In this document: positions 830 through 4,804 of the stretch, one piece after another | Layout of the letters: each line of letters starts with the position of its first letter | Numbering within the stretch: position 1 is the first letter of the stretch | Assembly: GCA_038230375.1 (NCBI GenBank) | Contig: JBBRNJ010000022.1 | Location: 32,001-96,000 of the forward strand | Origin: Polyangiales bacterium | GTDB taxonomy: Bacteria > Myxococcota_A > Polyangia > Polyangiales > Polyangiaceae | Direction: 5' to 3' | DNA: 64,000 bases | The notes under the pieces: generated by a model | The model's database searches: none | The model's input: only the letters and a program-made list of their open reading frames with translations | What the model was told of the DNA's origin: nothing | Translations under genes and position numbers: made by a program

Positions 830-2104
830 TCACTGAGCGAGGCGCAGGATGCCGACGAAAGAAGGCGCTTGTGCAATGAGGGCGCTGCCGGTGGCGGTGA
901 GCGCGCCGTTCGTGTCGATGCGGAACGCGGTCACCGTGCCGGAGCCCTGGTTTGCTGCGTAGAGGAGCGCGCCGTCGGGCGTGAGCGTGAAGTCGCGCGG
1001 CGTCTTGCCGCCGGTCTTCGTGGGCGTTCCCTTCATCGTGAGCTTGCCGCTCGTTCCGTCGACGGAGAAGGTGGCGATGCTATCGTCGCCGCGGTTCGAA
1101 GCGAACACCCAGTTACCTGTAGGATGCACCCAGATTTCCGCGCCCGTGTTGCCGACGACAGCACCTGCGAGCGTGGACGTGGTGTCCACCGCGGAGAGGC
1201 GCCCCGTGGTCGCGTCGAACGAGAGCGTGGTGACGGTGCTCGCGTTCTCCGCGATCAGGTAGGCCCACTTTGCGTTCGGGTGGAACGCGAGATGGCGCGG
1301 ACCTGCGCCGGCTGCCGTTGCGAGCGTGGGAGTCGCATTCGGAGTGAGCGTGCCCTTCGCCACGTCGAACACGTACTGCGCGACGTAGTCCGCGCCCTTG
1401 CAAGGCACGAACACGAAGTGATTCGTAGGGTCGGCGATGATCATGTGCGCGTTGGCGCCAGCCATCTTCGAGCTCACAGCGGCGCCAAGCGAGCCATTGG
1501 CACCGACCGGAAGCACGGCGACCGTCCCGTCACCATAGTTCGCAACGAAGACCCACTTGCCAGTGGCGTCCACGGACAGATGCGCAGGTCCGTTCCCCGT
1601 CGACGACACGACACCAAGAAACGCGATCACGCCAGACTTCGGATCGATCCCGTAAGCCGCGACCCGCCCCGCGGTCGCCTCATCCAGAGCGTACAAGTTC
1701 GTCCCCGATCGATTCCAAGCGAGAAAAGAAGGGCTACTTCCGATCGAAGCCATCGACCCCTTCGCCGTCAACGAGCCACTGGACTCATCCAAGGAGAACC
1801 AAGAAATGTTCGGCCCATACCCGCTGACGTAAGCCACAAGAGGCCCCTTGGAAACAGAAGCGTCCACTACACCCCCATCGAAGCCCAACGAACCATCCAG
1901 ACGCAACCCAGCATCGCCCGACACGTCGCCACCGTCATTGACAGGAGCCAAAGCCCCCCCAGCCCCACCACAACCCACACCAACAGCCACGCCAAACAGA
2001 GCCAACCACGACAACGACGACGACCCCGACATCGACTTCGACATCGACATCGACATCGACATCGACGACGACCCCGGCCCTGACTCTGACCTAGACCCGA
2101 GCAT
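830..2104 (-). CDS. Lactonase family beta-propeller (6-phosphogluconolactonase-like), probable lipoprotein; start uncertain
   Basis: Motifs GPAHLSVD, VANYGDG, AHMI, GAGPRHLAFHP, SNRGDDSI, TPRDF; signal-like LALFGVAVGVGC; several in-frame ATGs in the hexamer tract at 2030-2063. Confidence 0.85.
   Translation of the reverse strand: MLGSRSESGPGSSSMSMSMSMSKSMSGSSSLSWLALFGVAVGVGCGGAGGALAPVNDGGDVSGDAGLRLDGSLGFDGGVVDASVSKGPLVAYVSGYGPNISWFSLDESSGSLTAKGSMASIGSSPSFLAWNRSGTNLYALDEATAGRVAAYGIDPKSGVIAFLGVVSSTGNGPAHLSVDATGKWVFVANYGDGTVAVLPVGANGSLGAAVSSKMAGANAHMIIADPTNHFVFVPCKGADYVAQYVFDVAKGTLTPNATPTLATAAGAGPRHLAFHPNAKWAYLIAENASTVTTLSFDATTGRLSAVDTTSTLAGAVVGNTGAEIWVHPTGNWVFASNRGDDSIATFSVDGTSGKLTMKGTPTKTGGKTPRDFTLTPDGALLYAANQGSGTVTAFRIDTNGALTATGSALIAQAPSFVGILRLAQ
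2008..2100. repeat. (GACATC/GACTTC)n hexamer tract within the lactonase 5' end (encodes MSMSMS)
   Basis: gacatcgacttcgacatcgacatcgacatcgacatcgac at about 2028-2066 with degenerate flanks. Confidence 0.85.
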
Positions 2105-2172
2105 CCACCCAGACCTCACCCGAAAACAAACGCCACGCAAACGCACCGTATTCACCGCGCAAGAACACGCGT

Positions 2173-2320
2173 CGTGAATGGGGCGGATCGGTGCGCCGGC
2201 GCCCGTCAGGCGAGGCTTCGAGCGAGCACGGAGCGGAACGTACACCGGTACGTGAGCACCGCGCGCAGCTCGAAGGCTCGCCTGACGGGATGCCAGCGCG
2301 TCGAGGCGCCCCCATTCACG
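2173..2320. mobile_element. Palindromic REP/MITE-like element, copy 1 (148 bp)
   Basis: Nested IRs: CGTGAATGGGG 2173-2183/2310-2320 (11/11); CCCGTCAGGCGAGGCTTCGAGC 2202-2223/2268-2289 (21/22); apex ACGTAC-ACCG-GTACGT 2238-2253. Mobility is inferred. Confidence 0.7.
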
Positions 2321-2972
2321 GTTTGGCGCCTTGGAGGACCATTAGGTGGAACTTGCCGAACTCGCTCTGACCGAGCGTGAACAGGATCTCCACGAGGAGG
2401 CGATACGGAGTGTCTGCGTCGGCGATGATGATCGCTTCGCTGGACGAGGGATCTTTGCCGGTCGCTTGCCGGATGATGCGGTCCTTCTCGCGCCAGCTCT
2501 GGAGGGCGTTTGCGAGCGGCACGATGTAGAGATCGTTCGGGCCGGAGCGCTTGTACTTGCCCTCGATGCCGTGTGTGGCGTCGGCGGGGACGGGCGCGAC
2601 CTGGTTGTCGTCCACGACGATGGCTGACTTCGAGATGAGCACCGGAAGACCATCCTGCGAGGCCTCCGTGGTGAGAGTGCTCTTCGGCATCGTCAGGTCC
2701 TTCGACTGCGGAAGCGACGCGGATGACTGGCTCATGCTCTTGAGCAAGAAGACGAGGATGATCGTCATCATGTCGAGCATGGCGGTGATGTTGAGGTAGT
2801 TGCCTTCGCCGGGCTCACCCGCGCGGCGCTTCTGGATGCGGAGCGCGCGCTTGAAGGTGGCCATGCCGGCCGGCTTGGTCGGCGCAGGCGGGGGACGGGG
2901 TCCGCCGGGAGGAGCACCGGGACCACCGGGACCACCGCCTGAGGCACCTGCTGCAGGATTCTGATTAGCCAT
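2316..2972 (-). CDS. ExbD/TolR family protein (AglS-like paralog)
   Basis: YLNITAMLDMMTIILVFLL TM segment with conserved Asp; IIIADADTPY motif. Confidence 0.9.
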   Translation of the reverse strand: MANQNPAAGASGGGPGGPGAPPGGPRPPPAPTKPAGMATFKRALRIQKRRAGEPGEGNYLNITAMLDMMTIILVFLLKSMSQSSASLPQSKDLTMPKSTLTTEASQDGLPVLISKSAIVVDDNQVAPVPADATHGIEGKYKRSGPNDLYIVPLANALQSWREKDRIIRQATGKDPSSSEAIIIADADTPYRLLVEILFTLGQSEFGKFHLMVLQGAKP

Positions 2973-3007: not shown

Positions 3008-3571
3008 CTACTTGGCCAAACCGAAGTTGACCTCGGGGAAGAGGTCGTCGCCCTTGTCGGTCTTGCGCAGCGCGTCCATCGCGCCGATCACCGCCGAATA
3101 CGGGATCTGCGGGTTCGCGCTGATGGTGACCTGCGTCTCGTCCTTGAATGCCTCGGACAGGCCCTTCAGCTTGGTCGCGCATGCGTTGAGCTGCGTGTAG
3201 TCGTACTCGTTGCCCTTCTTCGGCACCGCGAGGCCGGGGCCGGGGTCATTGCAGCCCGGGGCGATGTTGCCCCCGCGAGCCTTGATGCTGAACCCATCGG
3301 GGACGACGATGACGGTGAGCCCGAGGGTGGGGACCACGGGGCCCGCCTTCGCAGCACCACCCGCGCGCGGAGGGAACGTGTCGATGGTCGCGGTGAACGT
3401 CACGCTCACCGTCGCGAGCACGAACATGAGAACGTTCGTGACGATGTCGAGGAACGGAATGATGTTGAGCTCGCCGCCCTCTTCATCAGGGGCGAGCTCC
3501 TTCACCGCAGCAAGGCGACGGACCTTGCTCCGCTGCGCTGCCGTCAGCTTCTCTTTGACTTCTTCAGCCAT
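3008..3571 (-). CDS. ExbD/TolR family protein (AglQ-like paralog)
   Basis: ELNIIPFLDIVTNVLMFVL with conserved Asp; VTISANPQIPY motif. Confidence 0.9.
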   Translation of the reverse strand: MAEEVKEKLTAAQRSKVRRLAAVKELAPDEEGGELNIIPFLDIVTNVLMFVLATVSVTFTATIDTFPPRAGGAAKAGPVVPTLGLTVIVVPDGFSIKARGGNIAPGCNDPGPGLAVPKKGNEYDYTQLNACATKLKGLSEAFKDETQVTISANPQIPYSAVIGAMDALRKTDKGDDLFPEVNFGLAK

Positions 3572-3603: not shown

Positions 3604-4296
3604 TCAGTAGCCGCCCGGACGCGTCTGGATGGAGAGCAGGTTGAAGACGCGCTCCATGGTGCCATCCAGATCGTGCTGAATGTTCTTCGCGCGCTGGTGC
3701 AGGATGAGGTGCGCGATCATGCACGTGACGGCGATCGCGAGACCGAGCGCCGTGTTGTACATGGCCTCGGCGATGCCGTTCGCGAGAACGCGCTGACGAT
3801 CCGCGGCGGAGAGGCCGGGAGCGGCAACTGCGCCGAACGTGTGGATCAGACCGTACACGGTGCCGAGAAGACCAAGCAGCGTGGCGATGTTCGCCAGCGA
3901 CCAGAGAGCGCCGATGCGCTTCTCGACCGCGGGCTTGAGCTCGCCGAGCTTCTCGCTCATGGCGGCGTCGATCTCGTCCGGGCCCTTGTTGGCGTGCGTG
4001 AGGCCAGCCTTCACGAGCTGGAGCGTGGGGTAGTCACCGCCGTCGCACAGCTTGATGGCGCGGTCGATGTTACCCGCGGTCACGAGCTTCTTGATCTGCG
4101 CGAAGAACTCCTTGGAGTTAACGCGATACTTGGTGAGCTGGAAGGCCGCACGCTCGATGATCATCGCGATCACGATGGCGCTGACGACGAGGTTGATGGA
4201 GAGGAACGTCGGGTTCTCCTTGAACGCCTCCATCAAGCCGCTGCTGCTTCCGCCGCTCGACGCAGACGTACCCGCGCTCAAAAGTGCAACGAACAT
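3604..4296 (-). CDS. MotA/TolQ/ExbB proton channel protein (AglR-like paralog)
   Basis: IATLLGLLGTVYGLIHTF and GIAEAMYNTALGL; ATG at 4296 preceded by AAAGGAG RBS. Confidence 0.92.
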   Translation of the reverse strand: MFVALLSAGTSASSGGSSSGLMEAFKENPTFLSINLVVSAIVIAMIIERAAFQLTKYRVNSKEFFAQIKKLVTAGNIDRAIKLCDGGDYPTLQLVKAGLTHANKGPDEIDAAMSEKLGELKPAVEKRIGALWSLANIATLLGLLGTVYGLIHTFGAVAAPGLSAADRQRVLANGIAEAMYNTALGLAIAVTCMIAHLILHQRAKNIQHDLDGTMERVFNLLSIQTRPGGY

Positions 4297-4547
4297 CCCC
4301 AACGCTCCTTTCTCAATCTCTTCATGACCAAATCGTTTGTGTGACCCGAGTCGCGTTAGCGGCCCCGGATCCATCGACTGCGTGCGCCCGAACAACAAGC
4401 GTCGACGTCGAAAAAGCTCGATGTACCGAGCGAGTGGGGACCACGATACCGGGAGTGTTCTTTCAAAGTCAATGCTCGAACGGACACGGGCCACGAAGTC
4501 CTCTCTCTCCGTGCCCACGAACGAGAAAGGGCCGAGCCCACGCACGG

Positions 4548-4804
4548 CGACTTCGACCCTCCGACCCCGACCTTCCCACCCCGACCTCGACCTCGACCTC
4601 GACCTCGACCTCGACCTCGACTTCGACCTCGACCTCGACCTCGACCCCGACCCCGACCCCGACTTCGACCTCGACCTCCACCTCGACTTCGACCTCGACT
4701 TCGACCTCGACTTCGACCTCGACCTCGACCCTCGACCTCGACCTCGACCCCGACCCTCGACCTCGACTTCGACCCCGACCTCGACTTCGACCCCGCGACC
4801 TCGA
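4548..4804. repeat. Long (GACCTC/GACTTC/GACCCC)n hexamer tract, intergenic
   Basis: About 250 bp of tandem tcgacc-type units between the divergent motor operons. Confidence 0.95.

What the first reader, a model, noticed from the sequence alone, without database searches (positions are those of the whole stretch)
1480..2350. Strand-polarised synonymous mutation 'halo' flanking a palindromic element
Seen: within the single lactonase gene, 30 of 69 codons at about 1802-2008 end in T (hand count), versus 0 of 40 at 961-1080. On the + strand this is G->A/G-loss, and it rises toward the element at 2173. On the other side the polarity is mirrored: the last codons of the ExbD gene end in A on the minus strand (CTA, CAA, AAA). 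So the strand reading toward the element loses G while the protein frame stays intact. Inference: repeated local error-prone resynthesis or ssDNA exposure is centred on the element. This would be a targeted mutagenic footprint rather than a foreign gene, and I know of no named system that explains it.
Basis: partly seen in the sequence, partly recalled or inferred. Interest (0 to 1): 0.85.

Follow-up and report, generated by a model that had tools for sequence, protein, structure and literature searches.

The report
Strand-skewed codon halo beside palindromic repeat
The first half of a lactonase gene in this soil-type myxobacterium has had its silent codon positions rewritten in a one-strand-only way (C and A lost, T and G gained), the strongest such patch in the genome, and it sits next to a mobile hairpin repeat that is linked to the effect but does not fully explain it.

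Summary
30 of 69 codons at 1802-2008 end in T, against 0 of 39 at 961-1080. The 300-bp window at 1851-2150 is the most A+C-rich (+ strand) of 179,095 windows in the 9-Mb genome. High-GC orthologues in other genera lack it.

The pattern is one-stranded: on the coding strand T- and G-ending codons rise and C- and A-ending codons fall, in every codon family and sequence context. A second halo, in GcvP, is shared by the sister species and diverges about 4 times faster than the rest of the gene.

The palindrome is a ~140-bp mobile hairpin repeat with 45 loci. In 51 of 55 flanks the strand reading away from it is G+T-rich at silent sites.

The element is not required:
- 33 of 36 strong 5' halos have no copy nearby.
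- Young insertions in the sister species show no added skew.
- Three loci that are empty in the sister species keep the skew.

Best reading, at moderate confidence: one strand is repeatedly single-stranded, probably through transcription or R-loops, and is deaminated. The element is an associated factor, perhaps a contributing one.

The parts
830..2062 (-). Lactonase gene (7-bladed beta-propeller) with a lipoprotein-type signal (..LALFGVAVGVGC). The start is one of the ATGs at 2032-2062.
   Evidence: PF10282 at E=2.8e-87. Translation and codon table.
1400..2170 (-). The halo. The coding (minus) strand is rich in G and T and poor in C and A. It covers the 5' 200 codons of the lactonase gene and the untranslated leader, and is strongest at 1851-2150.
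   Evidence: In 150 aligned codon columns, pos3 is T .25, A .02, C .33, G .40, against T .02-.05 and C .51-.68 in orthologues.
2000..2070 (-). Tandem hexamer array (GTCGAT/GTCGTC/GTCGAA on the minus strand) that overlaps the start codons. It is one of about 350 (GTCGNN)n arrays in the genome.
   Evidence: Sequence. Genome count. TRF unit classes.
2174..2320 (.). Near-perfect palindromic repeat, REPIN/MITE-like and forming a hairpin. Its outer stem contains the ExbD stop codon (2316-2318).
   Evidence: Self inverted match. nhmmer family of 45 loci. Alignment with compensatory stem changes. ssDNA fold of -71.9 kcal/mol, z=-8.6. No Rfam family.
2316..2972 (-). ExbD/TolR gene. It is the last gene of an ExbB-ExbD-ExbD run on the same strand as the lactonase gene.
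   Evidence: PF02472. Codon table.
2319..2618 (-). Mirror flank: the last 100 ExbD codons are C3-rich and G3-poor, so the + strand reading away from the element is G+T-rich.
   Evidence: T3 5, A3 9, C3 59, G3 27; keto3 -0.36, in the lowest 2.2% of 5,723 gene ends.

Best explanation
The halo is a real, local, strand-asymmetric substitution regime, not a gene-intrinsic or foreign feature. In the leader and first ~200 codons of the lactonase gene, the non-template (coding, minus) strand has lost C and A and gained T and G. This is the footprint expected when that strand is repeatedly single-stranded, so that cytosine deaminates to read as T and adenine to read as G. The usual pressure for G/C-ending codons then pushes the surviving sites toward G.

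The most likely source of the single-strandedness is promoter-proximal transcription through a G-rich, repeat-bearing leader that tends to form R-loops. That would explain why the effect is strongest at the 5' end and fades over 600-900 bp.

The palindromic element is a mobile hairpin repeat that sits at stop codons. Its old copies carry the same polarity on both flanks, so it may add outward transcription or otherwise prolong strand exposure. It is not needed for halos of this kind.

Shown: the composition, its strand polarity, its absence from orthologues, the faster divergence in one halo, and the statistical link to old element copies. Inferred: deamination, R-loops and transcription as the cause.
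For: - The skew is extreme and confined to one strand.
- Four strong halos were pooled. T-ending codons rise 2-6 fold in the 2- and 4-fold families (GCT .33 vs .06, TTT .45 vs .08), and TTG rises from .04 to .25. A-ending codons fall (GCA .01 vs .12, GAA .03 vs .14). GGG and CGG rise while other G-ending codons stay about level or fall. T/(T+C) rises 2.3-4.2 fold whatever the next base and 1.9-3.9 fold whatever the preceding base.
- Orthologues in other genera show no halo in the lactonase gene. In GcvP three of four show none; G011 has a mild T3 step at about codon 300.
- In GcvP the halo is shared by G000 and G001 and ends sharply near codon 300. There are about 25 differences per 50 codons inside it, against mostly 3-10 outside. 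Amino-acid identity is 40-46 of 50 in four of the six halo blocks (49-50 in the other two), against 46-50 (mostly 48-50) outside.
- T-rich/A-poor windows outnumber the mirror type 118 to 18. In 36 of 53 genes they start within 100 codons of the ORF start. Polarity therefore follows the direction of the gene.
- Related strains in run X2 differ by 11-14% across the halo, against 7% in the 3' part of the gene.
Against: - No RNA data exist for this organism, so transcription and R-loops are untested.
- No sigma-70 consensus promoter was found at 1700-2700.
- For genes whose 3' end faces an element, the C-poor strand is the template strand of the gene's own transcription. A purely sense-transcription model therefore fails on that side and needs antisense or outward transcripts.
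- Substitutions could not be polarised, because there is no close outgroup. The same-genus genome lacks this locus at contig ends.
- Differences inside the GcvP halo run both ways between C, G and T. That shows an equilibrium, not a direct C-to-T excess.
Confidence: 0.4

Rival explanations
1. The palindromic element itself causes the effect. Being symmetric, it would fire transcripts, prime DNA synthesis or open the duplex outward on both sides. The strand reading away from it would be exposed and slowly lose C. The halo would build up over the residence time of a copy and persist after the copy is lost.
For: - 51 of 55 flanks exceed the control baseline (p=2e-11).
- For 3'-facing genes the median keto3 is -0.29 against -0.06 in controls (p=8e-15). 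For 5'-facing genes it is +0.14 against -0.02 (p=1e-6).
- Intergenic type or length does not explain this.
- Occupied sites differ from empty sites (p=0.0004), while empty sites do not differ from controls (p=0.22). This argues against a simple insertion-site preference.
- G000 copies are old (nearest-neighbour identity 85.5%). G001-only copies are young (96.2%) and have weak skew.
- One 'empty' G001 site (C48) keeps about 25 bp of element end, which suggests secondary loss.
- The local GC-skew sign change at the element has the polarity seen at a replication origin.
Against: - 33 of 36 strong 5' halos have no copy within 500 bp; an example is C84:6819.
- 22-26 young-insertion flanks show no paired difference from the empty orthologues (mean difference 0.007, p=0.26).
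- Three loci occupied in G000 and empty in G001 have nearly equal skew: 0.180 vs 0.165 and 0.086 vs 0.043.
- Skew does not correlate with HMM score.
- No promoter consensus was found.
- An average range of ~300 bp cannot by itself account for 700 bp here.
Confidence: 0.27
2. Selection on the RNA rather than mutation. C-rich, G-poor gene ends ahead of the hairpin would act as Rho-loading (rut-like) tracts. G+U-rich, C-poor leaders and 5' coding regions after it would avoid premature Rho termination or strong mRNA structure, or would form a slow-codon ramp.
For: - Here the ExbB-ExbD-ExbD genes, the hairpin and the lactonase gene lie in tandem on one strand. The mRNA is C-rich before the hairpin and G/U-rich after it.
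- At 3'-facing flanks the main shift is G3 to C3, not G3 to A3.
- Several halo genes encode secreted or lipoproteins.
- That rut sites are C-rich and G-poor is recalled knowledge, not tested here.
Against: - The halo runs 200-300 codons, far beyond any leader or ramp.
- Cytoplasmic GcvP and an HD-domain gene have it too.
- Divergence is raised about 4 fold in the GcvP halo, amino-acid changes included. Selection for a fixed composition would not predict that.
- A-ending codons are depleted in every family.
- Gene ends without elements show no such trend in any intergenic class.
Confidence: 0.2
3. Artefact or mosaic: a chimeric MAG assembly, damaged-DNA sequencing error, or a 5' segment recombined in from a lower-GC donor.
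For: - The genome is a 179-contig metagenome bin at 94% completeness.
- No single X1 contig spans the element.
Against: - Logan contigs of X1 match 600-1818 and 1831-2056 with 0 differences and bridge the normal-to-halo transition.
- Related strains from another study (runs X2 and X4) cover the halo.
- The same pattern is found in a second genome of the genus.
- A low-GC donor would raise A3 as well as T3, but A3 is 1 of 69.
Confidence: 0.03

Closest known systems
Transcription-associated mutational strand asymmetry: deamination of the non-transcribed strand, and bidirectional asymmetries that start at promoters or CpG islands in mammals
   Same: G+T excess on the non-template strand, strongest near the 5' end and fading downstream. 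Around element loci it is mirror-symmetric on the two sides, as described for CpG islands (PMC2817419, seen only as title and abstract in the listing). The bacterial coding-strand C-to-T bias is recalled knowledge.
   Different: Here it occurs in a bacterium, is confined to a few hundred bp and is of extreme size (C3 46% down to 13%). It is tied to specific loci rather than to all transcribed genes. At 3'-facing flanks it runs against the sense transcript.
Single-strand-time gradients in vertebrate mitochondrial DNA, and leading/lagging GC and TA skew at bacterial origins
   Same: One strand shows joint C-to-T-type and A-to-G-type shifts, graded with distance. The skew changes sign from - to + across the element, as at an origin. 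The mitochondrial case is recalled; PMC4182315 was seen only in the listing.
   Different: The scale is 0.3-0.9 kb instead of a whole replicon. There are 45 or more centres per genome. Nothing here shows replication initiation.
REPINs/REPs and bacterial MITEs (for example Correia elements, which carry outward promoters)
   Same: A ~140-bp hairpin made of inverted halves. It is extragenic, often touches the stop codon, has tens of copies and differs in occupancy between sister species. Y1 transposase genes are present in the genome. Promoters in Correia elements are recalled knowledge. REPIN and REP-tag papers were seen only in the listing.
   Different: I know of no report of a flank-composition halo around such repeats, and searches listed none. 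The mobilising enzyme, any target duplication and any promoter activity are not established here.

Membership tests
REPIN / REP (RAYT-mobilised palindromic repeats) | A long hairpin made of two inverted halves, lying outside genes, in many copies | tested here: met
   45 loci. The alignment shows paired arms with compensatory changes. The fold has z=-8.6. Most copies lie between genes, often 0-1 bp from a stop codon.
REPIN / REP (RAYT-mobilised palindromic repeats) | A Y1 (RAYT-type) transposase in the genome, associated with the repeats | tested here: inconclusive
   Two PF01797 matches (31.9 and 31.0 bits, cut-off 23) at C38:805-1080 and C46:25782-26063. No element hit lies beside them in the nhmmer table.
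MITE | Insertion polymorphism between close relatives, with clean empty sites | tested here: met
   About 20 loci are occupied in G001 and empty in G000. Three are occupied in G000 and empty in G001. G001-only copies are 96% alike.
MITE | Target-site duplication of fixed length | tested here: inconclusive
   The junctions show insertion inside small pre-existing hairpins (C54, C48), but no consistent duplication could be read.
Transcription-associated strand-asymmetric mutation | Excess of C-to-T and A-to-G on the non-template strand | tested here: inconclusive
   Composition and codon usage fit. Substitutions could not be polarised for lack of an outgroup. G000-G001 differences inside the GcvP halo run both ways.
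Transcription-associated strand-asymmetric mutation | Dependence on transcription of the region | not testable with these tools
   No RNA run is listed for this organism.
Intrinsic (hairpin plus T-run) terminator | A G+C-rich stem followed by a T tract | tested here: not met
   The scan of 1700-2700 found no terminator-like site at the element. Element ends read ..CGCTGTTT only.
Replication-origin-type skew switch | GC skew changes from negative to positive across the site | tested here: met
   The cumulative GC skew has a local minimum at about 2200-2300. This is a resemblance only; no origin features were sought.

The most novel reading that the evidence does not exclude
Old copies of a mobile palindromic hairpin repeat act as small, two-sided centres of strand-asymmetric mutagenesis. 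From each copy the outward-reading strand is repeatedly exposed, by outward transcripts and R-loops or by priming. Over evolutionary time this rewrites silent sites and speeds up the evolution of the neighbouring 0.3-0.9 kb of genes several-fold, and the footprint outlasts the element. A selfish repeat would then be a local mutation-rate modifier for its host genes.
Probability: 0.25. Interest if true: 0.8.

Novelty: new variant of a known kind. Interest (0 to 1): 0.62.

Why it matters
Bacterial mutation rates are usually treated as varying smoothly along the chromosome. Here, patches of a few hundred bp have silent sites driven far from the genome norm on one strand only. At the one halo that could be compared between species, divergence is about 4 times higher and reaches the protein.

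If the cause is recurrent single-strandedness, these patches are natural maps of R-loop-prone or heavily started transcription in an uncultured myxobacterium. If the hairpin repeat contributes, small mobile repeats would be local modifiers of gene evolution.

The pattern also matters in practice:
- Codon-usage and GC3-based gene finders, HGT detectors and dN/dS scans will misread such regions.
- A simple third-position keto-skew scan would find them in other genomes.

Tried and rejected
- Foreign origin or relaxed GC pressure: rejected, because A3 falls and G3 rises.
- A conserved property of the gene: rejected on five high-GC lactonase orthologues. GcvP in four other genera also lacks the strong halo, although G011 shows a mild T3 step at the same codon ~300.
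- Low-complexity protein composition: this explains other skew outliers (C10:75001, C65:9501) but not this one, where third positions carry the signal in the folded propeller domain.
- Context-specific deaminase or methylation hotspot: no context preference.
- Hexamer arrays as centres of a two-sided skew: median away-skew is only 0.02-0.03 over 368 flanks. Genes with an array in the 5' zone do have somewhat higher T3 (13.0 vs 10.2).
- Break-and-resection, or gaps behind a hairpin-stalled polymerase: by my reasoning both predict C loss on the strand reading toward the element, the opposite of what is seen. Not tested.
- Diversity-generating retroelement: no template repeat or reverse transcriptase was looked for. 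The size and the A-poor, three-base equilibrium do not fit. Considered only.
- Direct comparison of this locus with the sister species: impossible, because G001 contigs end at window 539 and 4935.
- Rfam: only chance hairpin matches far below threshold.
- Sigma-54 and ECF-type motifs in the element: looked for by eye only, none convincing.
- Expression data: no RNA holder listed.
- Earlier notes of this scan: none for this genome or these words.
- The excess of changes toward G/T in the occupied genome at the three chosen loci (89 vs 54, my hand sum from the rows) is set aside, because those loci were picked for their strong halos.
- The script cap (40 of 40) stopped further matched-locus work. 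Loci L120-L127 were fetched but never compared.
Full report
WHAT IS THERE

The window is contig C22:32001-96000 of a 9.0-Mb, 179-contig, 67% G+C metagenome bin. Its relatives carry Polyangiales/Myxococcales labels, and its reads come from sediment.

On the minus strand lie ExbB (3604-4545), ExbD (3008-3571) and ExbD (2316-2972). These are followed by a palindromic element (2174-2320), a leader with a hexamer array (about 2000-2070), and a Lactonase-family lipoprotein gene (830 to about 2044-2062). The outer stem of the palindrome contains the ExbD stop codon.

- 30 of 69 codons inside 1802-2008 end in T, and 0 of 39 inside 961-1080 do.
- Along the gene, T3 per 20 codons rises from 0-1 to 8-11 toward the 5' end. 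C3 falls, G3 holds or rises, and A3 stays near zero.
- Genome-wide third positions are T 9.0%, A 6.4%, C 45.6% and G 39.0%. The general 5' gradient is only 13.6% to 8% T3.
- The 300-bp window at 1851-2150 (A95 C131 G51 T23 on the + strand) has the largest amino/keto skew of all 179,095 windows in the genome.
- Its third-position keto skew (0.70) ranks 4th of 101,758 windows. The three windows above it come from two ORFs, which are a giant hexamer array and a wrong-strand low-complexity ORF.
- Logan contigs of run X1 reproduce 600-1818 and 1831-2056 without a difference. The transition from normal to skewed sequence is therefore not an assembly join.

IT IS NOT A PROPERTY OF THE GENE

Lactonase orthologues in five high-GC relatives (59-62% and about 45% identity) have T3 of 0-5 per 20 codons over the lactonase-homologous part. 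In 150 aligned codon columns of the halo, this genome has pos3 T .25, A .02 and C .33, against T .02-.05 and C .51-.68 in three orthologues. The remaining 189 columns look alike in all four. Position 1 shifts slightly (T .21 vs .13-.17), partly through CTG to TTG.

THE SPECTRUM

Four strong halos were pooled: the lactonase gene, GcvP, a C5 lipoprotein gene and an HD-domain gene.

- Every T-ending codon in the 2- and 4-fold families rises 2-6 fold, and TTG rises from .04 to .25.
- A-ending codons fall 3-10 fold in most families (CGA and AAA barely change).
- GGG and CGG rise, while the other G-ending codons stay about level or fall.
- T/(T+C) rises 2.3-4.2 fold whatever the next base and 1.9-3.9 fold whatever the preceding base.

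So C and A are lost and T and G gained on one strand, without context preference. This is the pattern expected from deamination of an exposed single strand (an inference), with GC3 pressure steering four-fold sites to G.

A SECOND HALO GIVES A RATE

GcvP (C84:16779) has the element directly upstream in both G000 and the same-genus G001 (94% protein identity). T3 per 50 codons is 20, 15, 11, 11, 11, 11 and then 3, 4, 3, 2 in G000. In G001 it is 15, 11, 10, 11, 10, 5 and then 2, 2, 3. A3 is 0 in the first 300 codons of G000.

The two species differ at about 25 sites per 50 codons inside the halo, against mostly 3-10 outside. Amino-acid identity is 40-46 of 50 in four of the six halo blocks (49 and 50 in the other two), against 46-50 (mostly 48-50) outside.

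GcvP in four other genera has no element upstream and no comparable step. G011 shows a mild T3 step at the same place.

In run X2 a related strain differs by 11-14% across the lactonase halo, against 7% in the 3' part of the gene.

THE ELEMENT

nhmmer finds 45 loci of a ~138-143-bp near-perfect palindrome (AAACAGCG...CGCTGTTT). It has compensatory stem changes and, in some copies, a nested 27-bp palindrome. Many copies lie 0-1 bp from a stop codon. It folds at -71.9 kcal/mol as ssDNA (z=-8.6) and matches no Rfam family.

It is essentially confined to this genus: 4 of 41 genomes match, and two of those only partially.

It is mobile:
- About 20 loci occupied in G001 are empty in G000.
- Three loci occupied in G000 are empty in G001.
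- G001-only copies are 96.2% identical to their nearest neighbour, against 85.5% for G000 copies.
- Two Y1-transposase genes are present in the genome.

LINK BETWEEN ELEMENT AND SKEW

- For 38 genes whose 3' end faces a copy, the keto3 of the nearest 100 codons has a median of -0.29, against -0.06 for all genes (p=8e-15).
- For 17 genes whose 5' end faces a copy it is +0.14 against -0.02 (p=1e-6).
- Beyond 300 bp the average effect is gone.
- Put on one footing, the strand reading away from the element is C-poor and G/T-rich in 51 of 55 flanks. The frame-free profile decays over about 300 bp.
- Intergenic type and length do not reproduce this.
- The ExbD side of this locus fits: C3 59, G3 27, keto3 -0.36, in the lowest 2.2% of gene ends.

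It shows as C3 over G3, and three A-ending codons alone would not establish it.

THE ELEMENT IS NOT REQUIRED

- 53 genes have a T-rich/A-poor 60-codon window. In 36 it starts within 100 codons of the ORF start. Only 3 of those 36 have an element within 500 bp, and 11 have a hexamer array. A clear example follows secA directly, with neither feature.
- At young G001 insertions the flanks carry no more skew than the empty G000 orthologues. At 0-150 bp the values are 0.066 vs 0.058 (22 flanks, p=0.26). At 150-300 bp they are 0.026 vs 0.028.
- At three G000 loci with good halos, the empty G001 orthologues show nearly the same skew: 0.180 vs 0.165 and 0.086 vs 0.043.

Some evidence points the other way:
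- Empty G000 sites do not differ from controls (keto3 -0.11, n=19, p=0.22).
- Occupied G000 sites differ from them (p=0.0004). Simple insertion-site preference therefore does not explain the association.
- One 'empty' G001 site keeps an element end.

The data thus fit slow build-up around old copies that persists after loss. They fit equally well survival of copies at loci that have the skew for another reason. I could not separate these two without an outgroup.

MECHANISM

The polarity (the away-reading strand loses C) matches the non-template strand of outward transcription, or the lagging-strand template of outward replication. By my reasoning it is opposite to what 5'-to-3' resection at a break, or gaps behind a hairpin-stalled polymerase, would give.

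Genome-wide, T-rich windows outnumber A-rich ones 118 to 18 and sit at gene 5' ends. This favours transcription. I therefore commit, at 0.4, to promoter-proximal, R-loop-type exposure of the non-template strand as the cause of the lactonase halo.

Rivals:
- The element as a possible contributor or cause: 0.27.
- RNA-level selection (Rho loading and avoidance): 0.2. It is weakened by the raised divergence and by the 200-300-codon extent.
- Artefact or mosaic: 0.03.

No promoter consensus was found and no RNA data exist.

LITERATURE

Three full-text searches listed general work on strand asymmetries, CpG-island bidirectional asymmetries, REPINs and MITEs. None described composition halos beside bacterial palindromic repeats. 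I saw listings and abstract openings only and read no paper.

VERDICT

This is a real, extreme and unexplained local strand asymmetry. It is a new variant of known single-strand or transcription-associated mutational asymmetry. Its attribution to the element is only partly supported.

Noticed in passing
window 2000-2070; genome-wide, e.g. G000:C48:59406-59768, C169:220-385, C29:81240-81340: There are about 350 tandem arrays of (GTCGNN)n hexamers (GTCGAG, GTCGTC, GTCGAA, GTCGAT) with a median length of 72 bp. Cores that are not rotations of the unit give at most 21 matches. The arrays lie mostly upstream of genes or in their first codons, in either orientation. One array runs ~260 bp. Their function is unknown.
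   Followed up: partly
whole genome G000: TRF lists 3,987 tandem repeats in 9 Mb. Periods of 12, 15, 6, 18 and 9 dominate, which is an unusually repeat-rich genome.
   Followed up: no
G000:C11:73755-73951 and C84:19654-19876: Some element copies carry one to three nested copies of a second small palindromic unit of ~27 bp (GACGCGCTTCGTGATACCCGACGGGGT-like). The same unit appears at the ends of other copies (C59, C123).
   Followed up: no
L017 (G000:C54:54345-54459) and L016 (C48:49511-49639) against G001: A diverged subfamily of the element sits inside a small pre-existing hairpin right after the stop codon. The G001 empty site reads GAAGCCGCGGCTTC. This suggests hairpin-targeted insertion, or deletion back to a short palindrome.
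   Followed up: partly
G001 (same genus), 16 full-length copies: Element copies unique to G001 are 96% identical to their nearest neighbour (maximum 98.6%). This points to a recent burst in that species, whereas G000 copies are old (85.5%). Many G001 contigs end inside copies.
   Followed up: partly
G000:C38:805-1080 and C46:25782-26063: Two Y1_Tnp (PF01797) matches just over the cut-off, in open frames of 340 and 256 aa. They are candidate mobilising enzymes for the hairpin repeats. No element hit lies beside them.
   Followed up: no
window 2913-2972: The first 20 codons of ExbD itself have T3 = 11 of 20. This is a short 5' T-rich stretch in a Gly/Pro-rich N-terminus.
   Followed up: no
window 4550-4800: A C-rich (CCG-type) stretch with GC skew of about -0.5. 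It matches more than 40 places in G001 at 75-93% identity and is probably a Pro-rich linker coding repeat shared by many genes.
   Followed up: no
G000:C84:16700-16778 and G001 L020 upstream of GcvP: A small hairpin motif (GGGCGACTCCGCCTTCGGCGTCG) followed by a T-run lies between the element and the GcvP start. It is present once in G000 and three times in G001. It looks like an attenuator or terminator.
   Followed up: no
G000:C5:153600-153700: About four and a half tandem copies of a 22-bp unit (GTGTGGACTGCACGCGTGTGTGG...) lie between an element copy and a lipoprotein gene. That gene has the second most extreme skew window in the genome.
   Followed up: no
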